Part shown: piece after piece, positions 1 to 60,397 of the stretch
How the letters are laid out: every line of letters begins with the position of its first letter
Position numbering within the stretch: the first letter of the stretch is position 1
Assembly: GCA_937125475.1 (NCBI GenBank)
Contig: CAKZLL010000379.1
Location: 3,372 to 67,371 of the forward strand
DNA length: 64,000 bases
Origin: an uncultured Saprospiraceae bacterium
GTDB taxonomy: Bacteria > Bacteroidota > Bacteroidia > Chitinophagales > Saprospiraceae
Direction of reading: 5' to 3'
Program-made: the position numbers and the translations under genes
Notes under the pieces: model-generated
Database searches by the model: none
Seen by the model: only the letters and a program-made list of their open reading frames with translations
What the model was told of the DNA's origin: nothing

Positions 1-415
1 TTTTTTTTAAAATATTAATACTAGATTGACTTATATAATTAATAATCAACTCTTTATAAAACAAATAGGTATTCTTATTATATGCGATTTTATTCGTTAC
101 TAAAGAAATAGTCGTTTTCCTCTTTACAATATTTCATTTTTCATCTCAATTTAATAAAAAAAGACGATCAGCCTTAAAACATCTATCTAAGAAAAACATA
201 ACAAACCAAACCCTAAAATCGAGTAATTAGAAATTAATCTTATCCCAAAATTTTGTGTAACTTTAAAAGTCGAATTACAAGGAATAAAATATATTTTATA
301 TAAAAAATGGTTCTTTGAAAATTATTACAGAAGCCAATAATATTTTATGTGACTTGAATGATCTTGACGAAAGGACTATGTCACAGAAAGTTTAAATGAT
401 TAACAATCACTTTTA

Positions 416-458
416 CCTGACACCTGACACCTGACACCTCGCTCCTGATACCTTTTTA
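416..458. repeat. Heptamer tandem array (CCTGACA)x3 followed by degenerate units CCTCGCT CCTGATA CCT; solo copy of the element also present at 41191-41267
   Basis: Read directly: cctgaca cctgaca cctgaca cctcgct cctgata cct, followed by a T/A run; lies 30 nt upstream of the CDS at 488. Confidence 0.8.
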
Positions 459-18846: not shown

Positions 18847-20311
18847 GTAACTACTCACGTACCTAAGTAGCCATAATTTGCTTTAAGAAGAAGAAAACAT
18901 CAAGTTTTCTTTTTCTTAAAGTATCAATAATAGACCTTAGGACACAAAATGTATGTTGTCCAGACTTAAATTGTCCAGATATTTTTTGTTTCACCTTAAC
19001 ATTTCGAATAGCTCTCTCCGAAGCATTATTATCGGGAGGGACATCCAATTCATAAAGGCATTGAAATAGATAATTTCGGTATTTTATCATTGACTTCTGA
19101 AAAGTATGAGTTTTAGGAACAGTATTTTTTACAAGAGTTACAGCAAGTAATTGATTAAGTTCATTTTCTAACTCTTGAGCTTGTTCATCTTCTCTTTGAA
19201 AAGGTTTATTTTGTTCTATTACAAAATGTCTGAGTTTCAAAGTTTTGCTTAATAATTCCTTAAACTGCTTTGCCCATTTTGTTTTTTCTGTTTCAATCAA
19301 GTAAATTAAATCTCTTTGTAGATGAGGAAAACATAACTGTTTGCTCTTAGAAGCTATTTTTAGTTGTGCCGCCCAACGGTCTGAACCTATTATAGCATTT
19401 GGTAATCCATTAGGAAAAAGTGCCTCTACTGTGTCAAAACCTCGACTATTAGACGCTTTTAAAAAAGTGTTCTTAACATTTTGCCATACCCATATCCACC
19501 ATTTCTCTCCATCTACTTTTGCACCTGTTTCATCAGAACCAATATAATTACTCGTTTTTATATTTTCAAAAATGGTTTGATAAACGGGTTTTGATTTTGC
19601 TGCTGCTTTTTTCAATAAATTTTCGATACTACCTTCACTTATTGGTAAGTTGAAAATATCTTTGAACAGTAGTTGTAAACGTTTATAAGGTATATATTGA
19701 AATACATTGAAGTAACTAACCATTGCAATCACACTACTTCCGAACTGTATTGGAGCATTAATATTTTCTGGATAGGCTGCTTTTTGGTGATGTCCACAAC
19801 CACAAAGGCAGCTATACTGACGATACTCTTTGAACAATGGTTGAATAGGTGGAATGATGACTTCTTGTCTTTTAGAGACCAGTTCATGTGCCAAACAGCT
19901 TATATCCTCTCCACAACATTCACAGTAATTACTCTTTAAATCAACGATTTCGTCTGGAATAGCTTTCATTTTCAGAGTATTACCTTTATGCCCTAGTTGA
20001 CCTCCTGGCTTCCGACCAGTCTTTTTCCGTAAACTCTTATTCCGTTTCGGTTTCGACTTATCATTACTAGGGGGATTATGACTATTGTGACTATCTTTTT
20101 TTATTGACTGCTCCTCTTGTAATTTAAGCAATAACATTACTTTCTCATTCAGTAGCTTTATTTCACTACGAAGTGAGGCATTTTCTGCTTCTAATAATGT
20201 TATTTGCTCTGCTGAACCCATTCGATAATTTTATTATACTTCAACGTTTTTAAGAGAGTTTAATTTTATTCCTACTTTTTTCATAATTTCAAATTTGACC
20301 TGAGTAGTTAC
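18847..20311 (-). mobile_element. IS66-family insertion sequence, single-ORF (ISBst12-like) type, 1465 bp
   Basis: Terminal inverted repeats GTAACTACTCA(C/G)GT (11/11 perfect, 13/14); GTAA termini and an 8-bp TSD are IS66-family hallmarks; contains one transposase ORF. Confidence 0.88.
18863..20221 (-). CDS. IS66-family transposase
   Basis: 452 aa; N-terminal leucine-zipper-like helix, Cys-rich zinc-finger region (CECCGEDIS...CLCGCGHH), DDE region SDETGAKVDGEKWWIWVWQN. Confidence 0.9.
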   Translation of the reverse strand: MGSAEQITLLEAENASLRSEIKLLNEKVMLLLKLQEEQSIKKDSHNSHNPPSNDKSKPKRNKSLRKKTGRKPGGQLGHKGNTLKMKAIPDEIVDLKSNYCECCGEDISCLAHELVSKRQEVIIPPIQPLFKEYRQYSCLCGCGHHQKAAYPENINAPIQFGSSVIAMVSYFNVFQYIPYKRLQLLFKDIFNLPISEGSIENLLKKAAAKSKPVYQTIFENIKTSNYIGSDETGAKVDGEKWWIWVWQNVKNTFLKASNSRGFDTVEALFPNGLPNAIIGSDRWAAQLKIASKSKQLCFPHLQRDLIYLIETEKTKWAKQFKELLSKTLKLRHFVIEQNKPFQREDEQAQELENELNQLLAVTLVKNTVPKTHTFQKSMIKYRNYLFQCLYELDVPPDNNASERAIRNVKVKQKISGQFKSGQHTFCVLRSIIDTLRKRKLDVFFFLKQIMAT

Positions 20312-26735: not shown

Positions 26736-27794
26736 ATGAAAATAGTCTCTTTTTTCGCAGGTGCAGGAGGTTTAGACCTTGGCTTTGAAAAAGCTGGGTT
26801 TGACGTAGTTTGGGCAAATGAATACGATAAAGAGATTTGGACAACTTATAAAAAAAATCATCCTAATACTATTTTAGACCAACGAAGTATTACTAAGATA
26901 GAAGCGGGTGAAGTTCCTGATTGTGATGGAATTATCGGAGGTCCACCCTGTCAAAGTTGGAGTGAAGCAGGTGCTTTGCGCGGACTAAAAGATAAAAGAG
27001 GGCAATTATTTTTTGATTTTATTAGAATTTTAGAAGCTAAACAGCCTAAGTTTTTCTTAGCTGAAAATGTGAGTGGAATGCTTTCTTCTCGCCATAGCGA
27101 AGCATTAAAAAACATCAAGGAAATGTTCAAAAATGCAGGAAGTGGCTATGAATTGTCTTTCAAGCTCCTAAATGCATCGGATTATAATGTGCCGCAAGAT
27201 CGAAAACGAGTGTTTTTTATTGGTATTCGCAAAGATTTGGGATTTCAGTTTCAATTTCCATTAGTGAAGTATGACAAAATAAATTTGCAAGAAGCAATTA
27301 GCGATTTAGTTGATAATTCACTTCCAGCAAAAGAAAAAAATTACTCGAACACAAATGCTTGTCTTATCCCTAATCATGAATATATGACTGGCGGTTTTTC
27401 GACTATGTATATGTCCCGAAATCGGGTAAGAAGTTGGGACGAACAGTCTTTCACAATTCAAGCTGGCGGAAGGCACGCACCTATTCATCCACAAGCTCCG
27501 AAGATGAAATTAGTCTCAGTCAATAAAAGAATTTTCATACCAGAAAAAGAGCATTTGTATCGAAGGTTAAGTGTAAGGGAATGTGCTAGAATTCAGACTT
27601 TTCCAGATGATTTTATTTTTCATTACAATAAAGTTGCCGCAGGTTATAAAATGATTGGAAATGCTGTTCCTGTTAATTTGGCTAAGTTTTTAGCGGAAAA
27701 CATCAAGCATCAAATTGAAAAACAAGCTAAGAAAAATCATCATTATTCCGAAAAATTAAACGAAAATCACCCACAAGAATACATACAAATATGA
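26736..27794 (+). CDS. DNA (cytosine-5)-methyltransferase, M.HaeIII/M.NgoPII-like (probable GGCC specificity)
   Basis: 352 aa; motif I FFAGAGGLDLGF, motif IV GGPPCQSWS, ENV, QDRKRVFFIG, GNAVPV. The variable region (PNHEY..MSRNRVRSW.E.SFTIQAGGRHAPIHPQAPKM) matches my recollection of M.HaeIII. Confidence 0.93.
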   Translation: MKIVSFFAGAGGLDLGFEKAGFDVVWANEYDKEIWTTYKKNHPNTILDQRSITKIEAGEVPDCDGIIGGPPCQSWSEAGALRGLKDKRGQLFFDFIRILEAKQPKFFLAENVSGMLSSRHSEALKNIKEMFKNAGSGYELSFKLLNASDYNVPQDRKRVFFIGIRKDLGFQFQFPLVKYDKINLQEAISDLVDNSLPAKEKNYSNTNACLIPNHEYMTGGFSTMYMSRNRVRSWDEQSFTIQAGGRHAPIHPQAPKMKLVSVNKRIFIPEKEHLYRRLSVRECARIQTFPDDFIFHYNKVAAGYKMIGNAVPVNLAKFLAENIKHQIEKQAKKNHHYSEKLNENHPQEYIQI

Positions 27795-28636
27795 CCAATA
27801 TCTTAGAAGCTATTTATAATCTTACTCAATTAACTAATCTCGAAGTAAAGGAATTTACGGAAGGTAATAATCGGGTATTAAATGTTGGTGAAGGTTTAGA
27901 AATTTTTGTAAAAAATGCTTTTGCTAATACCTTTAATATTTCAGATAAAAAAGACCGATTAAAACAATTCAACGAACATTTTTCTTATCAAGGTAGTAAA
28001 AGAACACCGCCAGATTTGATGTTAAAAGGCGGTGATGCAATTGAAGTAAAAAAAGTCGAAAATCTTAATTCTGAACTTCAACTGAATAGTTCATATCCTA
28101 AAGCGAAGTTATTTTCAGATAGCAAATTGATTAATAATCATTGCCGAAATTGCGAAGATTGGACAGAAAAAGACATTATTTATACGATTGGGCACGTTCT
28201 GAAAAAATCTAAAAAATTATCTTCTATCTGGTTTATATATGGTTCAATTTATGCCGCAGATGCTTCGGTTTATACTTCCTTGAAAGATACTTTGACAAAA
28301 AGTATTGAAGATACGCCTAGTATCAATTTCTCTCCAACAAATGAAATCGGTCGAGTAAATTATGTTGATCCATTAAAAATAACCAACCTTCGTATTCGTG
28401 GAATGTGGCTTTTGAAACCGCCTTACAAAGTATTTGATTATTTACATCAATATTCGAGTGAAAAAGAATTTCAATGCATTGCTATTATTCCAATATTAAA
28501 ATACAATAGTTTTGAAAAGGAAAGTCGAGAAAAAATCGAAGCATTGACCGCTCTAACAATAAATAATGAACTGATTCAAGATCCAAATAATCCAGTTAAT
28601 TTGATTGATTGTAAAGTTATTCGATATGAGAGGTAA
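27791..28636 (+). CDS. Type II restriction endonuclease (PD-ExK), cognate of the adjacent methyltransferase
   Basis: 281 aa; its start overlaps the MTase stop by ATGA; PD-(D/E)xK motif readable as P74-D75...E85-V-K87 (TPPDLMLKGGDAIEVKK); the size fits NgoPII-type enzymes. Confidence 0.7.
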   Translation: MTNILEAIYNLTQLTNLEVKEFTEGNNRVLNVGEGLEIFVKNAFANTFNISDKKDRLKQFNEHFSYQGSKRTPPDLMLKGGDAIEVKKVENLNSELQLNSSYPKAKLFSDSKLINNHCRNCEDWTEKDIIYTIGHVLKKSKKLSSIWFIYGSIYAADASVYTSLKDTLTKSIEDTPSINFSPTNEIGRVNYVDPLKITNLRIRGMWLLKPPYKVFDYLHQYSSEKEFQCIAIIPILKYNSFEKESREKIEALTALTINNELIQDPNNPVNLIDCKVIRYER

Positions 28637-28674
28637 GTTCTTTTTATAAAATACCTCCTCTTTTCTCTAAAAAT

Positions 28675-28717
28675 AAAAGCCAACAAATCTGATAAATTTA
28701 GATTTTGTTGGCTTTTT
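28675..28717. terminator. Bidirectional rho-independent terminator
   Basis: aaaagccaacaaatct / agattttgttggctttt stem with T-runs on both strands; ends the R-M operon (+) and is the first terminator downstream of the Cas6-like gene (-). Confidence 0.8.
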
Positions 28718-28946
28718 TATTTTCCTATCCTTTGTCGTAATCCTCATCCGTGTGGTCTACTCATTCCTACCCCCTATTTGGCTTCCTATACTGATAATCA
28801 GCACATAACAATGTGTTTGCTTGTTGCGGGCAAACGCTGTTATTGCAATATGAAGATTTCTGTGATTTTAATGAGCTATATTTAAGTGGGTAAAACTGTG
28901 ACATAAAGTTAAGCGAAATATTCAGAAAAACAAAAATAAACCTTAC

Positions 28947-29621
28947 TTATCGCACTATTCCATATCCCAAACTCACGCCTTTACCTAACCCCACAAAATG
29001 CGGAATAAAAGCATTGGTTTTGAATTTGATTTGAAAAGCTTGTTGCGACATTTTACGAAATTGTGTCCGATATTGCTTTTCGATATCGAGAATAGATACT
29101 TGAACGCGCTCTTCTGGAAATACGCCCATGCCTTTGTAAAATGCAAAAATATGTTTGGTCAGTAGCTTTTCTAAAAAATTAACACGCTCTACCAGCCCAT
29201 CAAGCGCAGAATAAGCTTTGAAATTCTCTGCTCTAGTCAGCGGCATCCAATGACTAACGGTATAAGTAAATTTCTTCTCGTTTTCTACCCGTAATAAAAA
29301 CTCATGAACCTTTAATTCTCTGATCGTGCTTGTATAAATTTTTCCGTTAAGCGACAATTCCCAATTAGGATGAGAAAAGAATTTTTGAACTTCTTCTATG
29401 CCGTTTTCTAAGCAAAGTAACATCGGTCGGTGATGATGTCGCTTGTATTGCAAGAGCGAATATCGGTGATGATAACCGCCTGTTTCAGCTTTATGATTAT
29501 GAAACCATTCATTTTCCCAGCCGACTTTGCCTGCTATCGCGCCACGAAACGCGCTTAACTCCCTAGCTGTAATGGTTTCTTCAAATATAACATTTAATAC
29601 ACGAATATTTTTTTCGGTCAT
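28947..29621 (-). CDS. Orphan Cas6/RAMP-like protein
   Basis: 224 aa; C-terminal G-rich loop GLGKGVSLGYGIV (G-h-G-x5-G-h-G) at the position typical of Cas6; N-terminal FRGAIAGKVG; His-rich patches; no CRISPR repeats or other cas genes in the window. Confidence 0.55.
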   Translation of the reverse strand: MTEKNIRVLNVIFEETITARELSAFRGAIAGKVGWENEWFHNHKAETGGYHHRYSLLQYKRHHHRPMLLCLENGIEEVQKFFSHPNWELSLNGKIYTSTIRELKVHEFLLRVENEKKFTYTVSHWMPLTRAENFKAYSALDGLVERVNFLEKLLTKHIFAFYKGMGVFPEERVQVSILDIEKQYRTQFRKMSQQAFQIKFKTNAFIPHFVGLGKGVSLGYGIVR

Positions 29622-29707
29622 GTTTTCGTTTTAGTGATTAATAATTGATCCGTATTGATCTGTTGTGAATCTAGGAATATATTTTTAAACTCTAGCTTTC
29701 TATCCCA

Positions 29708-29723
29708 ATTTCTTCCAAGAAAT
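29708..29723. promoter_or_regulatory. Perfect 16-bp palindrome ATTTCTTCCAAGAAAT upstream of the Cas6-like gene
   Basis: Read directly; about 90 nt upstream of the start at 29621, in the 131-nt gap after the response-regulator gene. Confidence 0.3.
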
Positions 29724-29752
29724 CACATAGTTTAATACGAAATTATTAATCA

Positions 29753-30787
29753 CTATCCTGGCATTTCACGCAATTTATTTTTTTTCAAAATGATAATCTT
29801 GCTCCTTTGAATATCAATATATCCATCTTTTTTAAATTCGGCTAAAGTTCGGATCACACTTTCTTTCGCAGTCCCGACTATCTGAGCCAAATCTTCGCGA
29901 AGCATAATAAAAGTATTGCTTTTTTCTCGTTCACTGATTTCCACTAAAGCATCCGCAATTCTTTTCCGAATAGAATCATAAGCTAAATGCAAAAGTTGCC
30001 CTTCTTTTGCAGCAACATTATTCGCAAGTAGTTTTATTAATTGAGCTGAAACGGCTTTATTACTATTCATCAGTTCCAGAAAATTCTTTTTAGGTACTAA
30101 ACGAAGTGCCGATTTATCAACCGTTTGAGCCGAAAAATTATATAGTTTACCTTCAATCAAATTTGTATAACCAAAGAAATCACCAGTGCCACATATTTTA
30201 ATAATCAACTCTTTTCCGTAATCATTCGTTTTATATAATTTGACTTTTCCACTATCCACGAAGTACAAATACTTCGGTAAATCCTGTTCCCAAAAGATCG
30301 TTTCCTTTTTCTTAAATTCTTTTATAGCGTGACTTTCGCTTAATTTTTTCAACTCGATCGCGCCTTGTGTCGCATCAACAAAGCTCGTCGAAGCTGGACT
30401 AAGGCGTTTTTTAAGTGCCTCACTTTTTTTCAAACGAATTTCAATCGTATTTAATAATTCATCTTTATAAAACGGCTTAGTAATATAATCGTCCGCGCCT
30501 AAATTCATGCCTCTTCTCCAATCTTCTTTTTCAGACTTGGCAGTCAAAAAAACAAAAGGAATACCGTTTGTTTTATCCTTTCTACTCAAAATATTCAGCA
30601 CACCAAAACCATCTAATTCGGGCATCATCACATCACACAAAATCAAATCTGGCTGTTTTTCTAATGCTTTATGAACGCCAATTTTCCCATTTTCAGCCGT
30701 TTCTACATCATAGCCATAAAGCTCCAGAATTTCTTCCAAATTTTCTCTCACTTCTAAATTATCCTCTATTACTAATATTTTTTTCAT
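29753..30787 (-). CDS. Hybrid response regulator: REC + cNMP-binding + Crp/Fnr-type HTH
   Basis: 344 aa; receiver domain with phospho-acceptor context LILCDVMMPELDG and K in FLTAKS; a central cyclic-nucleotide-binding-like beta-roll; C-terminal HTH (REDLAQIVGTAKESVIRTLAEF). Confidence 0.85.
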   Translation of the reverse strand: MKKILVIEDNLEVRENLEEILELYGYDVETAENGKIGVHKALEKQPDLILCDVMMPELDGFGVLNILSRKDKTNGIPFVFLTAKSEKEDWRRGMNLGADDYITKPFYKDELLNTIEIRLKKSEALKKRLSPASTSFVDATQGAIELKKLSESHAIKEFKKKETIFWEQDLPKYLYFVDSGKVKLYKTNDYGKELIIKICGTGDFFGYTNLIEGKLYNFSAQTVDKSALRLVPKKNFLELMNSNKAVSAQLIKLLANNVAAKEGQLLHLAYDSIRKRIADALVEISEREKSNTFIMLREDLAQIVGTAKESVIRTLAEFKKDGYIDIQRSKIIILKKNKLREMPG

Positions 30788-30812
30788 CGCTATTTTTTAT
30801 AAAATGATGATT

Positions 30813-32078
30813 TTACAACGGCAAAACTACCCGAAAAGTCGTTCCTGCTCCTAATGCACTTTCAAAAGTAATTGTTCCATTAAGCAATCCTACATAATGC
30901 TTAACAATGTTTAATCCAAGTCCTGTACCTTTAATATTTTCTACATTATGCGCTCTAAAAAAACGTGTAAATAAATGCTTTTGATCCGCTAAAGGAATGC
31001 CTATACCTTCGTCTTTAATTTTGATAATCAATTGTTTATCAACGATTTCAGAAGCACAATAAATCGTTTTGTTTTCATCAGAATATTTAATGGCATTAGC
31101 TAATAAGTTATGCAAAATATGGCGCAAGAATTTTTTATCTGAATAAATTTCTTGAACTTGATCATTATTCGTAACACTTAAAGATTGTCCTTTTTTTAAT
31201 AAACCTTTTGTCTCATCTAACACTTCTTGACAAAAATCACTAAAAAGAAACCGCTCTTTTAAAATATCAATATTCCCTTCTTCCAATTTGCTCAACGATA
31301 AGAAATCATTTAAAATTGAAGTCAAATATTGGACAGCTTTTTTGATGCGAACTGTATGTTTTTCACGTTTTGGCTGCTGATCCGTTTTTTTATATAATTC
31401 AATCAATTCGATAGAAGACAAAATCGTACTCAAAGGCGTTCGAAACTCATGAGATGCCATACTCACAAAGCGACTTTTCAACTCACTCAATTCCTTTTCA
31501 GTTTCTAAAGCGGCTTTCAAATCCTCTTCACTTTTTCTCAACGCCATTTCTATTATCTGGCGTTCTTGAATTTCCGTTTCTAATTGTTGGTTAATTTCTA
31601 AGAGGCGATTAACAGCCATTCCGAGCTTTTCCGTTCGTTCTTTGACCTTTTCTTCTAAGATTTTGTTAAGCGTAACGATTTTTTCTTGTGCCGTTTTAAC
31701 ATCAGTCAAATCATGAATAATTCCTGTAAAAATTCGGCTATTTTCCAAAGCCACCTCGCCTACTGCCAATCGCATTGGAAAAGTAGAACCATCTTTTTTT
31801 TGTCCAGTTACTTCGCGCCCAATTCCTATAATTCGAGGGATTCTAGTATTCAAATATCGTTCTAAATAACCATCATGTTCCTTTCTATAAGGACTCGGCA
31901 TTAGCATATTGATATTATTTCCGATCACTTCTTTAGGAAAGTACCCAAATAATTTGGCAGCAGAAGGATTCATAGACTCGACTGTTCCATGTATATCAAT
32001 CGTAATAATTCCGTCTATTGCTGTATCAATAACGCCTTTTAGGCGTAGTGTTGCTTCTGTTGAATTTGATTGCTTCAA
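30813..32078 (-). CDS. PAS-domain sensor histidine kinase (cytoplasmic)
   Basis: 421 aa; PAS (DGIITIDIHGTVESMNPSAAKLFGY), coiled coil, H-box SHEFRTPL, N/G boxes NLLANAIKY, DEGIGI, GTGLGL; no TM segment. Confidence 0.88.
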   Translation of the reverse strand: MKQSNSTEATLRLKGVIDTAIDGIITIDIHGTVESMNPSAAKLFGYFPKEVIGNNINMLMPSPYRKEHDGYLERYLNTRIPRIIGIGREVTGQKKDGSTFPMRLAVGEVALENSRIFTGIIHDLTDVKTAQEKIVTLNKILEEKVKERTEKLGMAVNRLLEINQQLETEIQERQIIEMALRKSEEDLKAALETEKELSELKSRFVSMASHEFRTPLSTILSSIELIELYKKTDQQPKREKHTVRIKKAVQYLTSILNDFLSLSKLEEGNIDILKERFLFSDFCQEVLDETKGLLKKGQSLSVTNNDQVQEIYSDKKFLRHILHNLLANAIKYSDENKTIYCASEIVDKQLIIKIKDEGIGIPLADQKHLFTRFFRAHNVENIKGTGLGLNIVKHYVGLLNGTITFESALGAGTTFRVVLPL

Positions 32079-32130
32079 TTTTTTTTTAATAATTTATGTT
32101 GCAAAATAGGCTTTTCTCTTTAGTCGTAAT

Positions 32131-32166
32131 GTGATAAAAGTCATATAAGATAATGACAAAAGTCAT
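32131..32166. promoter_or_regulatory. Two tandem 5-N4-5 palindromes (GTGAT-AAAA-GTCAT and ATGAC-AAAA-GTCAT), candidate Crp/Fnr-family operator
   Basis: Site 2 (32153-32166) is a perfect 14-bp palindrome and site 1 (32131-32144) is a near copy. Centres are 22 bp apart. The sites lie in the divergent promoter between the HK/RR operon and the Trx-like/USP gene. Confidence 0.4.
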
Positions 32167-32277
32167 AAAAGCCAAAGCAAATTATAACGAATTTAGCATT
32201 TAAATGGTTTTGTAGTATTCGGCTTCAAGTTATGCTACATTTAACTATCTAAATATTAACGCAAGTAAAAATGAAAA

Positions 32278-33384
32278 ATGAATACCATTCAAATTCTAGG
32301 AGTAAGTGATTATAGCAAGACATTAAACCTAAAAATTAACGCGCATAAAGCCTTAAATAATTTAGGCTTGCGAGCCAATTGGGAAGAAATAACAGATATT
32401 GAAACGCTGTTAGACTTCCATCTTGCTGGAATTCCTGCTCTTGCCATTGATGGTAAAATTATTTATCAAAAAGACCTCCCTAGTGTCAAAAACCTAGAAC
32501 TATTATTCCATTTATTCTCTACCGAAAAAAGTGAATTAGGACAAATTAATCACATTTTAATTCCAACTGATTTTTCAACAATTTCGCGTGAAGCTTATGA
32601 ATACGCGCATTGTTTAGCAGCTCATTTTTCCGCCGACCTTGAATTACTCAATGTTCATTTTCCAAATGCACTTGAAGCTACGCCTTTTTACCTAAATTAT
32701 GCTGCAACAGACATTCAATTAAAAAAAGAATCATTGATAGCTTTTGCGAAAGCAACTCCCTTACCTCCGAGTTGTTGCGACGAACATCGAGTAGAAATTC
32801 AAGAACATTTTAGTGTTGCTTGTGGTTTGCCTGAAGATGTTATTGTAAAAAAATCTCAAAACGAGGATGTCGATTTGATTGTAATGAGTACAACAGGCGA
32901 AAATGGTTGGTATCAAAAATGGCTAGGCAGTATTTCAAGGCATACTGCGATGAATGCTAAATGCCCTGTTTTATTGATTCCCAAAGGAATAACTTATCGT
33001 TGTCCGCGTCATATTTTGTATGCGACAAATTACCACCCTAATGAATTTCAAGCATTAGAGCAGTTAATTATTTTTGCAAAATATTTTAAATCCCAAATTC
33101 ACATCATCCATGTTGCGGAATCAGAAACAGATAAAATAGAACCTGAAAAAAGTATCGCAAGCCAGCCTTTCCGCAATGGTTTGCCCAATCTTTATTATAA
33201 AATTTCAACTATTGTAGACAAAAATATTTCTACTGGACTAAATCGTTATGTAGCAGAAAATAATATTGATTTGATTGCAATGCCAACGATTAACCGCCCT
33301 TTTTTTAATCAACTTTTTCATAAAAGTACAACTAAGGATATGGCAATTCAAACAAAAATACCTTTACTAGTTTTACATATTTGA
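32278..33384 (+). CDS. Thioredoxin-like (CxxC-less) domain fused to tandem universal stress protein (UspA) domains
   Basis: 368 aa; residues 1-70 resemble the small Thioredoxin_3 fold (IQILG....IPALAIDGKIIYQ), but the GxGCxxC position reads GVSDYSK; two USP modules follow (ILIPTDFS..., ILYATNYH...). Confidence 0.72.
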   Translation: MNTIQILGVSDYSKTLNLKINAHKALNNLGLRANWEEITDIETLLDFHLAGIPALAIDGKIIYQKDLPSVKNLELLFHLFSTEKSELGQINHILIPTDFSTISREAYEYAHCLAAHFSADLELLNVHFPNALEATPFYLNYAATDIQLKKESLIAFAKATPLPPSCCDEHRVEIQEHFSVACGLPEDVIVKKSQNEDVDLIVMSTTGENGWYQKWLGSISRHTAMNAKCPVLLIPKGITYRCPRHILYATNYHPNEFQALEQLIIFAKYFKSQIHIIHVAESETDKIEPEKSIASQPFRNGLPNLYYKISTIVDKNISTGLNRYVAENNIDLIAMPTINRPFFNQLFHKSTTKDMAIQTKIPLLVLHI

Positions 33385-35569: not shown

Positions 35570-37186
35570 TTATTCGTCCACAACTGACATAGGCATATTC
35601 GCATCATAATTACCTTTAATAATTGGTGTTTGGCGTTCGCCAGTATAAGATTGGACATTAATAAAAATATAACGATAGAGTTCAGCAATTTTGACAACAC
35701 CGCTTTTATCAAAATCAGCTTCTCCTTTTAATCCTCGAATTAAGAAATGGCTAAAAATTCCCTGACGCAAACCACTAGATTCTAATGATTGCTCTTCGGC
35801 TTTTGATGATAATAAAAGTACAGTACTCGTTTCGACTGCATCGAAAGCTTCATAATATTGGTCAATCAAGCTTTTACTACTTGCAGTACTTCGAGCAGCA
35901 AAATCACCCAAACTACCAGAATGACAAGCATCTGCAATACAAACTTTAAATTTAGCTTGACTACTTTCCATGATTCTACGCACATCATCGTGTGAAATTT
36001 GATTATTAAAACCATCAAAATCATAAGGAATAAATGAGCCTTTCAAACCATGACCAGAAAAATAAAACAAAACCATATCGTTGCTATCAGCTTTTGAAAA
36101 AACATCGTGCATCGCTTTTAGAATATTCTTCTTTTTGGCTTCCTCGTCTATCAAAATAGCAATTTGCTTTTCGCGTAATGCACCGCCTTCTGGACTTCTC
36201 AAAAACATAGCCACTCGATAAGCATCATCATCTGTGTAATACAACGTTTTCATATGATTGTATTGCGCTACACCAACAACTACCGCCCAAACTGTTATCT
36301 CTGGATCAAAAGCTGCTTTCTTAGTAATTGCTTTTGAAAGACTATCAACCATTAGATCGTGTGCTTCTTCTAAGCTTCCATGTTTCCAAATTCCACCAAC
36401 TACTTTTCCATCCGCAAAATACATGGTTCCTTCTCCATGAAAAGTGCTTTTATACCAATTTCCTACATATTTATCTCCATTGACATAACTACAAGTACCT
36501 TCACCATGAAAACCACCTTCTTCAAAACCACCAAAATATTGACTACCATCAGCAGTTACATAAGAACCTTCTCCATTAAAACAATCTCCTGCAATACAAC
36601 CGACTTTACCACCTGTATCTCCAATATACTCTCCAAAATGCCAAATACCAGCCATTTCTTTACCAGTGACTAGAAATTTTGTTCCATTTCCATGAATATA
36701 ATTATTTTTCCAATCGCCTTCATATCGTTCACCATTAGCAAACCAAACCTTTCCAGCTCCATTTTTTCTACCATTTTGAAAATTCCCTTGATATTTACTT
36801 CCATCATCATATATGAAAGTACCTTGTCCATCAGTGCAGTTTCCTGCAATACAACCTTTTTGTGGTTTTTCCGTTTCGACAGGTTTATCTTCTTCTTGGA
36901 AACGTCCTTTTTTCCATTCTCCTTTTTGAACTCGTCCATCAGGATAAGTCATAATACCTTTTCCTTCTTGATAACGATTGACCCATTCACCAGAATATCT
37001 CCGTCCATCTGAATAGTATAACGTACCAATACCATTCATTGAACCTTTTGTAAATTCTCCAACATATCTAGCTCCACTATTATAAAGGTAAGTTCCTAAA
37101 CCATTAGAACAATTTCCTGAAATGCACTGAGCAACACTCCATTGAGTTATAAATAGACCTATCCCTAACAACAAAATCTTTTTCAT
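35570..37186 (-). CDS. Secreted MORN-repeat protein fused to a caspase-like (peptidase C14) domain
   Basis: 538 aa; signal peptide; about a dozen or more Y-x-G-x-(W/F)-x-x-G-x-x-x-G-x-G MORN units in three blocks separated by GC(I/S)(A/S)GNC motifs; C-terminal domain with His (FYFSGHGLKG) and Cys (CIADACHSGS) dyad contexts. Confidence 0.8.
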   Translation of the reverse strand: MKKILLLGIGLFITQWSVAQCISGNCSNGLGTYLYNSGARYVGEFTKGSMNGIGTLYYSDGRRYSGEWVNRYQEGKGIMTYPDGRVQKGEWKKGRFQEEDKPVETEKPQKGCIAGNCTDGQGTFIYDDGSKYQGNFQNGRKNGAGKVWFANGERYEGDWKNNYIHGNGTKFLVTGKEMAGIWHFGEYIGDTGGKVGCIAGDCFNGEGSYVTADGSQYFGGFEEGGFHGEGTCSYVNGDKYVGNWYKSTFHGEGTMYFADGKVVGGIWKHGSLEEAHDLMVDSLSKAITKKAAFDPEITVWAVVVGVAQYNHMKTLYYTDDDAYRVAMFLRSPEGGALREKQIAILIDEEAKKKNILKAMHDVFSKADSNDMVLFYFSGHGLKGSFIPYDFDGFNNQISHDDVRRIMESSQAKFKVCIADACHSGSLGDFAARSTASSKSLIDQYYEAFDAVETSTVLLLSSKAEEQSLESSGLRQGIFSHFLIRGLKGEADFDKSGVVKIAELYRYIFINVQSYTGERQTPIIKGNYDANMPMSVVDE

Positions 37187-41190: not shown

Positions 41191-41267
41191 AGGTGTCGGG
41201 GGCGAGGTGTCAGGTGTCAGTCTAATCATGTTAAAAATGCTGACACCTGACACCTGACACCTGACAC
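41191..41267. repeat. Inverted pair of CCTGACA-heptamer arrays (16-bp perfect stem, 19-nt spacer)
   Basis: aggtgtcgggggcgaggtgtcaggtgtcag (41191-41220) - spacer - ctgacacctgacacctgacacctttcgc (41240-41267). The left arm in reverse complement has the same unit order as the copy at 416-458. Confidence 0.85.
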
Positions 41268-41488
41268 CTTTCGCTATAAATGGTTAAAAAAATCATAAAA
41301 TGCAAATATAAACAATCATTAAAACATGACCTATATATATTTAAACGTCTAAAAGGCAAATTAAAGTAAATTTAATTATTAAAATTATGTGAATGGATGT
41401 ACTATTTGTGTGATTATGCGTTTTTAGTATATCAAATGATTTATGATTTTAATCATCAAGTATCAACATCATAATTAAAGCTGTCAAA

Positions 41489-54649: not shown

Positions 54650-55204
54650 ATGAAATCAGTCCAATTAATTTTTCTAATTATTTCTTGTCATTTTTCTTTT
54701 TCCGCTTTCGCTCAAAATTGGCTAGATGGCGCGGAACAAAAATGGGATAACAACCCCAAAGAATGGACAATTTACACCGATAGTTTGGAAGGAGAGTTGA
54801 ATTTTCGTTGGCAATTATCAAATGGAACGGAAGCCTGGGATTATATAATTGGAGATGATATTAGTGGAAATATAGAGCAAACTTGGGGGAATGATCGAAC
54901 AGAATGGACGCTCAGAGCAACAAATGGAGAGATTATTACAATGAAAACCGTTTGGCAAAATGACCTCACCGAATGGCGTATTACCGATAATACCGAATCA
55001 TTTAAGCTCCAACAAAAATGGAATAATGATAAAAATGAATGGTATATTGATGACAAAGAATGGGGCGAAATGCTTTTAGAAACCAATTATCACAATGATT
55101 TTCGCGATTGGAAAGTAACCGATGACTTGAAGGATGGACTAAATATTCATTTTAGAATGGCAATTATGTTTGTGGTCTTGACTAATACAATAAGCGGTTT
55201 CTAG
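54650..55204 (+). CDS. Secreted Trp-rich repeat protein, function unknown
   Basis: 184 aa; signal peptide; five copies of W-x-N-(D/N)-x-x-(E/D)-W-x-(I/L/V) (KWDNNPKEWTI, TWGNDRTEWTL, VWQNDLTEWRI, KWNNDKNEWYI, YHNDFRDWKV). Confidence 0.55.
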   Translation: MKSVQLIFLIISCHFSFSAFAQNWLDGAEQKWDNNPKEWTIYTDSLEGELNFRWQLSNGTEAWDYIIGDDISGNIEQTWGNDRTEWTLRATNGEIITMKTVWQNDLTEWRITDNTESFKLQQKWNNDKNEWYIDDKEWGEMLLETNYHNDFRDWKVTDDLKDGLNIHFRMAIMFVVLTNTISGF

Positions 55205-58441: not shown

Positions 58442-58557
58442 TTCAATTGAGAATTGATAATGGACAATTGATAATGCCTGAGTTGGCGCGATTTTCATTA
58501 GACTTGTTCTGCAGCAGCTTAATGGGCTGCGACGGGCAAATTTAGTTAATAAAAATA

Positions 58558-58599
58558 GAAAAGCCATTTTGAGTAATAAACTACTCAAAATGGCTTTTC
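58558..58599. terminator. Bidirectional hairpin terminator
   Basis: gaaaagccattttgagta / tactcaaaatggcttttc 18-bp stem between convergent genes. Confidence 0.8.
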
Positions 58600-58654
58600 T
58601 ATTTGGTTCTTTGACAATTTTCAAATCGAAAATACATCAATTATCAATTATCAA

Positions 58655-60397
58655 TTATCTAACGTAAGTATTTAAATGATAGTTAACAACTGTTCTTAAC
58701 ACACTTAATCCTAGAACTTGTGCTTCTTTTTCATTGAAACCACGACCTAAATAATGGTTTTCTAATTTGACAAGTGCTTGATAATAAGCAATTTCTAAAG
58801 GCGTAACCATTTTTTTGTGTAACGGATCACTGTCAGACCATTTGTTTAATGCACTCCAAAGACGATCGTTCCAAGTCTCAATAACAGATGCTTCATCCGC
58901 TGAAATAGTTGGCGCTAAATATAATTGAGCGCGGCGAGAATCATAAGCTAATCTAATATTTTCATCTCCTTTACCCAATGCTGCATGATTGGTATGATCC
59001 AAATCTTCCGCGATTGTTTTTAAAACTTTCAATTCTTCCCATTCCATAAAATCACCACAGCCAGAAGCCATTGAGTACAATTTATTGAACATAGAAGCTG
59101 CTTCTTTTGGATGATTTTCAAACAACCAACAAGGCAAAGCAGGTGGGTCTTGCATCGCATCTTGCATATAACTCAAATGCTCAATAATCAATAAAATATT
59201 ATCATAGTGATATTGTTTATTAAAATCCAATCCTGTTGTACCTTTATAAGATCCAGTAACAAATACTTTCTGAATAGCACCATTCATCAATGCATCAATT
59301 AATTGTTGCTTGTTTTGTTCCTTCGGATTCGCTTTTCCTGTATAATACATATAAGCTAAATAAACATCAGCCATCGGATGACCTTCGCTTTTCAAACCGC
59401 CATAAGCCAAGAAAGGGTTTTCATAAATCATATTCACATAACTTTGAATACCACCTTTAACGCCTTCTTCTTTTTTGTTCTGTGCAATGAGTTTATATTG
59501 ATTATATCTATCATTTTTTACCTCAAACATTTTCAATGCATCCTCTGTATTTCGACTATAAACGCCATTTACATCACCTGTAAAGTTAGAATTATCTGCC
59601 AATAAGGTTTGTAATTGTTTAACCGATTTTCTAGGCTTATCATTAAACTCATCATAAGAAACAGGAATATCTGTTGGTTTGACAATCAAAATATCACCAC
59701 CTTTATTTCCAATGTAGCTAATATCTTTATCATTAGAAACTTGTGGTTCAGGTTTAATTTCAGGTCGAATCACAGGCTTAACGACAATAGGTTCAATTTT
59801 CGGCTTTGAAGCTTTTGAAGTATTAACTGCCATTTCAAAAGGACTTGTCTTATGAATTAATCCTCGATTAATATGCTTGATATATGCTCTTTCATGACCT
59901 TTTTCTCTAACCGTTTGCAAATTTAGGTTAGCTGTTTTTAGGTCATTATAAGAACCAATCAAAACTTTAACTTTATCATCTGCCGTTAAATAAACATATA
60001 CACTTTTGAAAACACGCCATTTTTCCCATTCAATTCGCTCTCCTTTATTATAGGATTGAACCTGAACACCATAAGCCATATTTCCAGCATCGATCTTACG
60101 ATTAGAAACAAAAGCATCTTTAAAACCTAATGCTTTAACTTCCGCCAAAACCGATTTTGCTAAAGTTGGATTTTCAAATCGACCTAATAATACACGGTGG
60201 ATTTTTCCAATACTTTCTGTATATAAATAGCCAACTTTCTTTAATTTCTGAAAGTCAGACACTTTTGGACTAGAAAAAGCACCTAATTGAATAACATAAA
60301 CCGCTTCTGGTTGCTTTTTGAAAGGACTTTCTGGGTTCGCGTAATTCTGAACAGTAATAGTACCAATCAGAAATAATATTAACATTAATTGTCTCAT
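58655..60397 (-). CDS. SPOR-domain protein with large uncharacterised C-terminal domain
   Basis: 580 aa; signal peptide; two SPOR-like modules (YVIQLGAFSS...; YGVQVQSYNK...); about 340 aa of unassigned C-terminus. Confidence 0.65.
   Translation of the reverse strand: MRQLMLILFLIGTITVQNYANPESPFKKQPEAVYVIQLGAFSSPKVSDFQKLKKVGYLYTESIGKIHRVLLGRFENPTLAKSVLAEVKALGFKDAFVSNRKIDAGNMAYGVQVQSYNKGERIEWEKWRVFKSVYVYLTADDKVKVLIGSYNDLKTANLNLQTVREKGHERAYIKHINRGLIHKTSPFEMAVNTSKASKPKIEPIVVKPVIRPEIKPEPQVSNDKDISYIGNKGGDILIVKPTDIPVSYDEFNDKPRKSVKQLQTLLADNSNFTGDVNGVYSRNTEDALKMFEVKNDRYNQYKLIAQNKKEEGVKGGIQSYVNMIYENPFLAYGGLKSEGHPMADVYLAYMYYTGKANPKEQNKQQLIDALMNGAIQKVFVTGSYKGTTGLDFNKQYHYDNILLIIEHLSYMQDAMQDPPALPCWLFENHPKEAASMFNKLYSMASGCGDFMEWEELKVLKTIAEDLDHTNHAALGKGDENIRLAYDSRRAQLYLAPTISADEASVIETWNDRLWSALNKWSDSDPLHKKMVTPLEIAYYQALVKLENHYLGRGFNEKEAQVLGLSVLRTVVNYHLNTYVR

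What the first reader, a model, noticed from the sequence alone, without database searches (positions are those of the whole stretch)
28947..29621. Orphan Cas6/RAMP-like gene with no CRISPR array or other cas genes, beside an R-M system and downstream of a two-component system
The 224-aa product ends in GLGKGVSLGYGIV. This is a textbook Cas6/RAMP glycine-rich loop (G-h-G-x5-G-h-G) at the usual C-terminal position. The N-terminus (IRVLNVIFEE...FRGAIAGKVG) and His-rich patches (HNHK, YHHRY, RHHHRP) are compatible with a ferredoxin-like RAMP fold with a catalytic His. I read all intergenic regions of the 64 kb and found no repeat-spacer array, and no cas1/cas2/effector genes. The gene is co-directional with a PAS kinase and a REC-cNMP-HTH regulator, 131 nt downstream of them. 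On its own strand it is followed by about 230 nt of structured non-coding RNA before the first terminator. A stand-alone Cas6 could be an exapted RNA endonuclease that processes a non-CRISPR transcript, or part of an uncharacterised defence or regulatory module.
Basis: partly seen in the sequence, partly recalled or inferred. Interest (0 to 1): 0.72.

Follow-up and report, generated by a model that had tools for sequence, protein, structure and literature searches.

The report
Stray Cas6 gene without its CRISPR
This is a genuine, intact CRISPR RNA-cutting enzyme gene (Cas6b family) sitting alone in a housekeeping region, most likely left behind or separated from a type III CRISPR locus rather than recruited to a new job, so it is a fairly ordinary find.

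Summary
The ORF at 28947-29621 (-) is real and is a Cas6b-family endoribonuclease. Both Pfam Cas6b domains score above threshold. The predicted structure superposes on M. maripaludis Cas6b (TM 0.85). The catalytic His pair and the glycine-rich loop are intact. The 64 kb window holds no CRISPR array and no other cas gene, so "orphan within the window" is confirmed.

The exaptation reading is not supported:
- About 85% of well-flanked relatives (Saprospiraceae and other Bacteroidota) lie in type III Csm or Cmr loci or beside 36-37-nt-repeat arrays.
- Orphan copies are scattered through the tree. One has visibly lost its array and one is frameshifted.
- No neighbour is shared with the closest homologue (74% identity).
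- The adjacent two-component system is a widespread FixL/FixJ-like unit that lies beside unrelated genes in the three relatives examined.
- The 3' tail is not unusually structured.
- The best match to the family's repeat in the whole window lies 177 nt downstream of cas6. It has the usual side and orientation, which suggests a vestigial terminal repeat (E 0.016, weak).

The gene is most likely a canonical Cas6 separated from its locus. Whether it still serves arrays elsewhere cannot be tested here. Novelty and interest are low.

The parts
28947..29621 (-). cas6 gene, Cas6b family, 224 aa. It is intact, with the catalytic pair His41/His43 (FHNH), the QYK motif and the C-terminal glycine-rich loop GLGKGVSLGYG.
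   Evidence: ORF. Pfam Cas6b_N and Cas6b_C above gathering score. PADLOC Cas6 1.2e-36. PDB 4z7k 1.1e-13, with H41/H43 aligned to MmCas6b H38/H40. AF2 pLDDT 92.4 and Foldseek 4z7k_A TM 0.85, E 5e-19. All family-invariant residues are kept. dN/dS about 0.07 against L007.
28734..28770 (+). Candidate vestigial CRISPR repeat (GTCGTAATCCTCATCCGTGTGGTCTACTCATTCCTAC). Only the first 12-16 nt match the family consensus GTCGCAATCCT. It lies 177-213 nt downstream of the cas6 stop, on the opposite strand.
   Evidence: It is the best hit in the whole window to an HMM of 27 repeats from related loci (E 1.6). It is the only hit when the search is limited to the IGRs flanking cas6 (E 0.016). It is the only exact GTCGYAATCCT in the window. 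Its side and orientation match 14 of 16 downstream arrays in the family (L003 and L031). The gapped alignment to the L031 repeat (27/37) is not discriminating on its own. Status: suggestive only.
28672..28716 (.). Bidirectional terminator hairpin (GCCAACAAATCT...AGATTTGTTGGC, with an A-run on one side and a T-run on the other). It is shared by the convergent cas6 and restriction-enzyme genes.
   Evidence: Read from the sequence. It is the strong 3' hairpin in the MFE and centroid folds. The simple terminator scan did not list it, probably because of its longer loop.
29622..29752 (-). The 131-nt spacer between the response-regulator gene and cas6. No terminator was predicted, so read-through from the two-component operon is not excluded. 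A weak sigma-70-like match lies at 29669-29641.
   Evidence: The promoter type of Bacteroidota is not covered by the scan.

Best explanation
The gene encodes a canonical Cas6b-type pre-crRNA endoribonuclease. It belongs to the clade that serves type III (Csm and Cmr) CRISPR-Cas systems in Saprospiraceae and other Bacteroidota.

Inferred mechanism: it would bind the 36-37-nt repeat of this clade (GTCGCAATCC...TTAGAAG type). By analogy with M. maripaludis Cas6b it would cut 8 nt before the repeat's 3' end without metal, using the His41/His43 pair. This would produce crRNAs with an 8-nt 5' tag for Csm or Cmr complexes.

Here the gene has been separated from its system. The adjacent array, and whatever cas genes accompanied it, were lost or replaced. 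What remains is cas6, perhaps a degenerate terminal repeat 177 nt downstream, and now a NgoPII-type R-M cassette next door. The two-component system upstream is a fortuitous neighbour.

Shown: family membership, intact active site, absence of partners in 64 kb, the CRISPR context of relatives, and recurrent orphaning in the family.

Inferred: in-situ loss, and the identity of the repeat remnant.

Unknown: whether the enzyme still processes crRNA from arrays elsewhere in the genome.
For: Identity. Catalytic His pair.

Relatives:
- 68 of 82 loci with a cas6b ORF have cas genes or an array in the fetched flank.
- Of 33 relatives with at least 8 kb on both sides, 28 are linked to Csm, Cmr, Cas1, CARF genes or an array.
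- Arrays often start 200-460 nt from cas6.

Orphans are scattered in the tree, each next to cas-linked sisters.

Direct examples of decay:
- L022 is syntenic with L015 and its cas6 is 93% identical at the nucleotide level, but it lacks the 40-repeat array and the second cas6.
- The orphan in L056 is frameshifted at the C-terminus.
- L003 looked orphan only because its contig ends two repeats into an array.
- Truncated B. fragilis type I-B loci that retain cas6 are described in PMC5704556.

Repeat remnant.

Neighbours are not conserved.
Against: - The repeat remnant is statistically weak. Only 16 nt align, at 5.9 bits and E 0.016 in a pre-specified 1.26-kb search space. It could be chance.
- The gene is fully intact. 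The window and L007 proteins (74% identity) give dN/dS of about 0.07, and neither has a visible cas neighbour. That would fit long-term maintenance of a lone cas6. However, L007 has only 113 nt downstream, and dS is saturated.
- No close relative shows a full type III locus at this exact chromosomal position, so in-situ loss is not demonstrated for this genome.
Confidence: 0.6

Rival explanations
1. This is a functional dispersed cas6. The gene was never part of a locus at this site, or it moved here. It processes, in trans, pre-crRNA from one or more arrays and type III loci elsewhere in the same genome. The repeat-like 16-mer is chance.
For: - The ORF, the catalytic residues and every family-invariant position are intact.
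- Purifying selection is strong (omega about 0.07).
- One MAG (JAUHXA01) carries a cas6 with no cas gene or array in the 10 kb downstream (L051; only 277 nt upstream were fetched) and a second cas6 beside an array (L060).
- Several loci have cas6 plus an array kilobases away from the effector genes (L015, L060, L064).
- Type III cas loci are the ones most often isolated from their arrays (PMC5294841).
- It is general knowledge that type III systems commonly use a Cas6 supplied in trans.
Against: - It cannot be tested here, because the rest of the source MAG is unavailable.
- The window's 64 kb holds no array or effector gene.
- The positional coincidence of the repeat-like motif favours a former array at this site.
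Confidence: 0.27
2. This is an exapted Cas6. It would be a lone RNA endonuclease that processes a non-CRISPR transcript or acts in a new defence or regulatory module, possibly controlled by the upstream PAS kinase and REC-cNMP-HTH regulator.
For: - The window-L007 clade sits on a long branch (46% identity or less to all others).
- Both members lack visible cas neighbours, and the clade is under purifying selection.
- The near-invariant Pro55 is replaced in both (Ser and Ala).
- No terminator is predicted between the regulator gene and cas6.
Against: - No neighbour is shared between the two clade members.
- The two-component unit is ubiquitous in Saprospiraceae and is not linked to cas6 in the three relatives examined.
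- The tail RNA is not significantly structured and is not conserved in the 113 nt that can be compared.
- The active site and RNA-binding loop are the same as in array-linked relatives.
- Only two members exist among 5.8 billion proteins, so there is no expanded orphan family.
Confidence: 0.08
3. This is a non-functional gene remnant on its way to pseudogenisation, with no remaining substrate in the genome.
For: - Orphan L056 is already frameshifted.
- Recurrent, phylogenetically shallow orphans suggest they are short-lived.
Against: The ORF is full length with all conserved residues, and no sign of relaxed constraint is detectable. However, a recent loss of function would leave no trace yet.
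Confidence: 0.05

Closest known systems
Cas6b of Methanococcus maripaludis (PDB 4Z7K/4Z7L; Pfam PF17955 and PF17262)
   Same: - Two-domain ferredoxin-like RAMP fold (TM 0.85/0.87).
- H-N-H catalytic histidine pair. H41/H43 here correspond to H38/H40 there, which were shown to be catalytic in PMC3479195.
- C-terminal glycine-rich loop.
- Similar length.
   Different: - Only 24% identity in the structural alignment.
- The archaeal enzyme belongs to a type I-B locus with a 37-nt repeat. This clade is attached to type III Csm and Cmr loci in Bacteroidota.
- Tyr47 of MmCas6b aligns to a variable position (His52 here).
- There is no array beside this gene.
Cas6 genes of Saprospiraceae and Bacteroidota type III-A/D and III-B loci
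   Same: - Same protein family, at 35-46% identity.
- Every invariant residue is shared.
- The window protein nests inside this clade in the NJ tree.
   Different: - Those genes sit next to cas10, csm2-5 or cmr1-4, cas1 (in one locus, L004, also cas2 and a reverse transcriptase), CARF effectors, and arrays of 5-95 repeats.
- The window gene has none of these within 29-35 kb on either side.
Truncated or isolated cas loci described in the literature (B. fragilis truncated type I-B retaining cas6, PMC5704556; isolated cas loci, PMC5294841)
   Same: Partial decay of a CRISPR-Cas locus, or its separation from the array, leaving individual cas genes. This is commonest for type III.
   Different: - Here a single cas gene remains, with at most one degenerate repeat.
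- The published cases keep several cas genes or a short array.

Membership tests
Cas6b family (Pfam Cas6b_N PF17955 and Cas6b_C PF17262) | Significant match to both domain profiles, above the curated thresholds and over their full length | tested here: met
   Cas6b_N: 81.3 bits (cutoff 25), profile positions 2-103 of 105. Cas6b_C: 91.1 bits (cutoff 39.4), positions 4-112 of 114. PADLOC Cas6 and Cas6b: 1e-36 and 6.5e-34.
Cas6b family | Tandem ferredoxin-like (RAMP) fold that superposes on a solved Cas6b | tested here: met
   AF2 model with mean pLDDT 92.4 and pTM 0.89. Foldseek against 4z7k_A gives E 5.2e-19, TM 0.85/0.87 and rmsd 2.4 A. The next matches are type IV Cas6/Csf5 and P. furiosus Cas6.
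Cas6b family | Pair of catalytic histidines separated by one residue (H38/H40 in MmCas6b) | tested here: met
   H41-N42-H43 aligns to H38-N39-H40 of 4z7k. The mutational evidence is in PMC3479195. Both His are invariant in 82 of 82 relatives.
Cas6b family | C-terminal glycine-rich loop (G-h-G-x-x-x-x-x-G-h-G) | tested here: met
   GLGKGVSLGYG at residues 211-221. It is conserved in the family alignment.
Cas6b family | Sequence-specific cleavage of a CRISPR repeat RNA 8 nt from its 3' end | not testable with these tools
   This needs the purified protein and repeat RNA, or small-RNA sequencing.
Complete type III CRISPR-Cas locus | cas10 plus csm or cmr RAMP subunit genes near cas6 | tested here: not met
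   phmmer of all window ORFs against Cas10, Csm2-5, Cmr1-4, Cas1 and CARF proteins from related loci found only Cas6. Pfam annotation of the window's ORFs shows housekeeping genes.
Complete type III CRISPR-Cas locus | Repeat-spacer array | tested here: not met
   No array by TRF, direct-repeat search or a k-mer array finder that detected arrays in more than 30 related loci. Only one degenerate repeat-like sequence was found.
   Nothing but cas6 is shared between the window and L007. The TCS unit lies beside unrelated genes in the three relatives examined. The tail RNA has z = -1.54 and is not conserved in the 113 nt that can be compared.

The most novel reading that the evidence does not exclude
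The window-L007 lineage may be a stably solitary Cas6b. It would have been kept under strong purifying selection for a long time (dS saturated, omega about 0.07) without any CRISPR-Cas partner. It would have acquired a non-CRISPR RNA-processing or regulatory role, perhaps acting on a transcript that carries the solitary repeat-like element beside it or on read-through transcripts of the neighbouring operons.
Probability: 0.08. Interest if true: 0.6.

Novelty: new member of a known kind. Interest (0 to 1): 0.2.

Why it matters
The finding matters little beyond annotation. It adds a divergent, intact Cas6b to the type III-associated clade of Saprospiraceae. It also illustrates how often cas6 is stranded when CRISPR loci decay or are replaced in defence-gene hotspots: about 15% of well-flanked relatives are solitary. 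Interest would rise only if the whole genome proved to be free of CRISPR while the gene is expressed and under selection. That would point to a non-CRISPR use of a Cas6 nuclease.

Tried and rejected
1. Structured 3' tail RNA. RNAfold gave z = -1.54. Rfam found only tRNA-Ser in the window. There is no conservation with the L007 tail. Rejected.

2. Functional link to the two-component system. The regulator has more than 6000 homologues. In three relatives the HK-RR-Usp unit is followed by cbb3 oxidase/FixI genes or PP2C, not cas6. Rejected.

3. Link to the R-M system. No relative of cas6 has the NgoPII cassette beside it in the clustered neighbourhoods. Rejected as a module. It is kept only as a possible replacement of a former array.

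4. Conserved small upstream gene. The 181-aa ORFs upstream of cas6 in L007 and L049 are unrelated.

5. Foreign-DNA signature. GC content across 20-36 kb shows no clear island. Inconclusive.

6. Identifying the source genome or its other contigs.
   - The genome contigs pattern (RYP) missed the window's own RYS sequence.
   - Cluster look-ups gave no accession or organism name.
   - The look-up of encoding contigs showed only the ENA metagenome contigs.
   - Tetranucleotide similarity to L011 (same study, cas1 plus cas6) is suggestive but not diagnostic.

7. Testing whether the L007 contig ends in an array. The metagenome scan with its terminal 20-mer found nothing, not even L007, so that contig is not in the collection. 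A protein-based metagenome scan also found nothing.

8. PADLOC scan of all window ORFs through the alignment route. The aggregated table was swamped by methylase models and is uninformative for weak cas hits. It was replaced.

9. Gapped global alignment of the repeat remnant to individual repeats. The result, 27/37 to L031, is not discriminating. About 0.35% of random 37-mers do as well.

Full report
OBSERVATION

It lies 131 nt downstream of, and co-directional with, a REC-cNMP-HTH_Crp regulator (29753-30787) and a PAS histidine kinase (30813-32078). It is convergent with an RE_NgoPII restriction enzyme (27791-28636) and a Dcm methylase (26736-27794).

No CRISPR array exists in the 64 kb:
- Tandem Repeats Finder found only short simple repeats.
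- The direct-repeat search found one 23-nt pair inside a coding region.
- A k-mer array finder that detected arrays in more than 30 related loci found nothing in the window.

No other cas gene is present:
- phmmer of every six-frame ORF of at least 50 aa against Cas10, Csm2-5, Cmr1-4, Cas1, CARF and accessory proteins taken from related loci recovered only the cas6 ORF.
- Pfam annotation of the remaining window ORFs shows ordinary Bacteroidota housekeeping and T9SS-cargo genes.

The '230 nt of structured RNA' is not special. The 282-nt tail folds with z = -1.54, and 15 of 200 shuffles fold as well. Its only strong element is a bidirectional terminator hairpin at 28672-28716.

WHAT THE PROTEIN IS

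- Both Pfam Cas6b domains match over their full length, well above the gathering scores (81 and 91 bits).
- PADLOC Cas6 scores 1.2e-36.
- The only PDB sequence match is M. maripaludis Cas6b, 4Z7K, at 1.1e-13.
- An AlphaFold2 model built on 37 relatives is confident (pLDDT 92.4, pTM 0.89). Its best structural neighbour is 4z7k_A (E 5e-19, TM 0.85/0.87, rmsd 2.4 A), followed by other Cas6 enzymes.
- The phmmer alignment puts His41-Asn42-His43 on His38-Asn39-His40 of MmCas6b. Those are the two interchangeable catalytic histidines shown by mutagenesis (PMC3479195).
- Both histidines are invariant in 82 of 82 relatives, and the window protein keeps every invariant family position.

Membership of the Cas6b family is met on every feature that can be tested in silico.

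WHAT THE RELATIVES DO

The protein database holds one identical copy (P0001: an NCBI contig of 71.6 kb and an ENA metagenome contig). It holds one homologue at 74% identity (P0002/L007). Everything else is at 46% or less.

Gene neighbourhoods from exact look-ups and from 79 loci of GTDB species representatives were analysed together. I called ORFs, clustered them by all-against-all BLASTP, and annotated the recurrent clusters with PADLOC. The recurrent neighbours are:
- Cas10/Csm1, Csm2, Csm3, Csm4 and Csm5 (Cas10 in 45 loci);
- Cmr1, Cmr2, Cmr3 and Cmr4;
- Cas1;
- Csx1, CARF-PDDEXK and CARF-RelE.

At least 23 loci carry arrays with a clean consensus repeat, and the looser array finder flagged 35. 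The repeats are typically 36-37 nt and of one family (GTCGCAATCC...GGTTTAGAAG). They often start only 200-460 nt from cas6.

Of 82 loci with a cas6b ORF, 68 have cas genes or an array in the fetched flank. Among the 33 relatives with at least 8 kb on both sides, five are solitary: L002, L008, L049 (Saprospira grandis DSM 2844), L056 and L070. This is therefore the Cas6 of Bacteroidota type III systems, and roughly 15% of copies are stranded.

HOW ORPHANS ARISE

In an NJ tree the solitary copies are scattered, each beside cas-linked sisters. Examples are L070/L071, L049/L013, L002 and L008/L023, L056/L005 and L022/L015. Three cases show how the orphan state arises or is misread:
- L022 is syntenic with L015 over 5.7 kb and its cas6 is 93% identical at the nucleotide level. 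It lacks the 40-repeat array and the second, convergent cas6 of L015.
- L056 has lost the glycine-rich C-terminus through a frameshift.
- L003 looked orphan only because its contig stops two repeats into an array that begins 277 nt after cas6.

One MAG (JAUHXA01) carries both a solitary cas6 (L051) and an array-linked one (L060). The literature describes the same pattern. Truncated B. fragilis I-B loci retain cas6 (PMC5704556). Type III cas loci are the ones most often isolated from their arrays (PMC5294841).

THE WINDOW GENE AND ITS SURROUNDINGS

The window and L007 proteins form a long-branched pair. Their sisters are L010 (next to cas10) and L011 (next to cas1), and they lie near L031 (next to an array).

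Between the two proteins, dN/dS is about 0.07. dS is saturated, so the number is rough, but constraint is clear.

Apart from cas6 the two loci share nothing. L007 has only 113 nt downstream, so its array status is unknown.

The regulator upstream of the window gene has more than 6000 homologues at 1e-40 or better. In the three relatives examined the Usp/HK/RR unit is conserved. It is followed there by FixI-type ATPase, FixS and cbb3-oxidase genes, or by PP2C, and in none of them by cas6. The unit is probably a FixL/FixJ-like redox regulator (inference from domain content and neighbours). Its adjacency to cas6 is fortuitous.

An HMM of 27 family repeats gives its best hit in the whole window at 28734-28749 (+), inside the cas6-RE intergenic region (E 1.6 window-wide):
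- When the search is restricted to the four intergenic regions flanking cas6 in the window and in L007, this is the only hit, at E 0.016.
- It is the only exact GTCGYAATCCT in the window.
- It lies downstream of cas6 with the repeat's canonical strand opposite to cas6. That is the arrangement of 14 of 16 downstream arrays in the family.
- Only the 5' 12-16 nt are conserved. This is what a leader-distal, degenerate terminal repeat would look like (inference).
- The evidence is suggestive, not conclusive. A gapped comparison with individual repeats is not discriminating.

INTERPRETATION

Most likely (about 0.6), this is a canonical type III-associated Cas6 whose neighbouring array and cas genes were lost or replaced. 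An intact gene remains, possibly with one vestigial repeat beside what is now an R-M cassette.

It may still process crRNAs from arrays elsewhere. That reading, without a former local array, is the main rival (about 0.27). The two cannot be separated here because the rest of the source MAG could not be reached.

An exapted, non-CRISPR role (about 0.08) is not excluded. It has no positive support: there is no conserved partner, no conserved or unusually structured RNA, no change in the active site, and only two members in 5.8 billion proteins.

Simple ongoing pseudogenisation is a minor alternative (about 0.05).

NOVELTY AND SCORE

This is a new, divergent member of a known family in a known kind of situation, namely an isolated cas gene. 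Interest is 0.2. The most novel reading still open is a stably solitary Cas6 with a new RNA target. I give it a probability of about 0.08 and an interest of about 0.6 if true.

Noticed in passing
window 26736-28636 (+): A compact type II R-M cassette. The Dcm-type cytosine methylase (352 aa) and the RE_NgoPII-family endonuclease (281 aa) overlap by 4 nt. The cassette is convergent with cas6 and shares a bidirectional terminator with it. It may have replaced a former CRISPR array.
   Followed up: partly
window 29753-33384: The Usp/thioredoxin-like gene, the PAS histidine kinase and the REC-cNMP-Crp regulator form a unit conserved across Saprospiraceae. In relatives it sits next to FixI/FixS and cbb3 oxidase genes (L091, L092) or PP2C (L090). 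It is probably a FixL/FixJ-FixK-like redox regulator.
   Followed up: partly
window 18863-20221 (-): IS66-family transposase (DUF6444 plus DDE_Tnp_IS66) about 7 kb from the R-M/cas6 pair. This indicates some mobile-element activity in the region.
   Followed up: no
window 415-453, 41205-41269 and 58445-58659: Heptamer tandem repeats in intergenic regions. (CTGACAC)n or its complement occurs at 415-453, and as an inverted pair at 41205-41220 and 41240-41269. (AATTGAT)n at 58445-58475 faces its complement (ATCAATT)n at 58636-58659, about 160 nt away. Function unknown.
   Followed up: no
window 54650-55204 (+): A 184-aa ORF with no Pfam match. It weakly resembles (phmmer E 2.5e-4) a ~190-200-aa protein (cluster c18, no Pfam or PADLOC match) encoded immediately after cas6 in the type III-B loci L052 and L026, and at the end of the csm operon in L023.
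   Followed up: no
L005 1-20124 and L006: A cas6-NARF-cas10-csm2-5 operon with a 19-repeat array lies directly beside phage terminase, portal, protease and capsid genes. VRR_NUC and methyltransferase genes are on the other side. This may be a prophage- or phage-borne type III system.
   Followed up: no
L014 10735-16114; also L030 and L047: cas6 is followed by a Cmr1-like RAMP gene paired with a PtuA/Septu-like AAA ATPase (duplicated in L014), rather than by a full cmr operon. This is an unusual RAMP-ATPase pairing.
   Followed up: partly
L015 9920-14520: Two convergent cas6 genes flank a 40-repeat array. The closely related L022 keeps one cas6 and the flanking genes but lacks the array and the second cas6.
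   Followed up: yes
L056 9074-9925: A solitary cas6 whose C-terminal glycine-rich loop is replaced by unrelated sequence. This looks like a frameshift, that is, a decaying orphan.
   Followed up: partly
L004 10237-20225: A stand-alone reverse transcriptase gene lies next to cas2 and cas1, with a 95-repeat array, beside a csm operon that includes an EAD11-domain gene.
   Followed up: no
window 35570-37186 (-): A metacaspase-like protein (Peptidase_C14 with faint MORN repeats) a few kb from the cas6 region. No link to cas6 was established.
   Followed up: no
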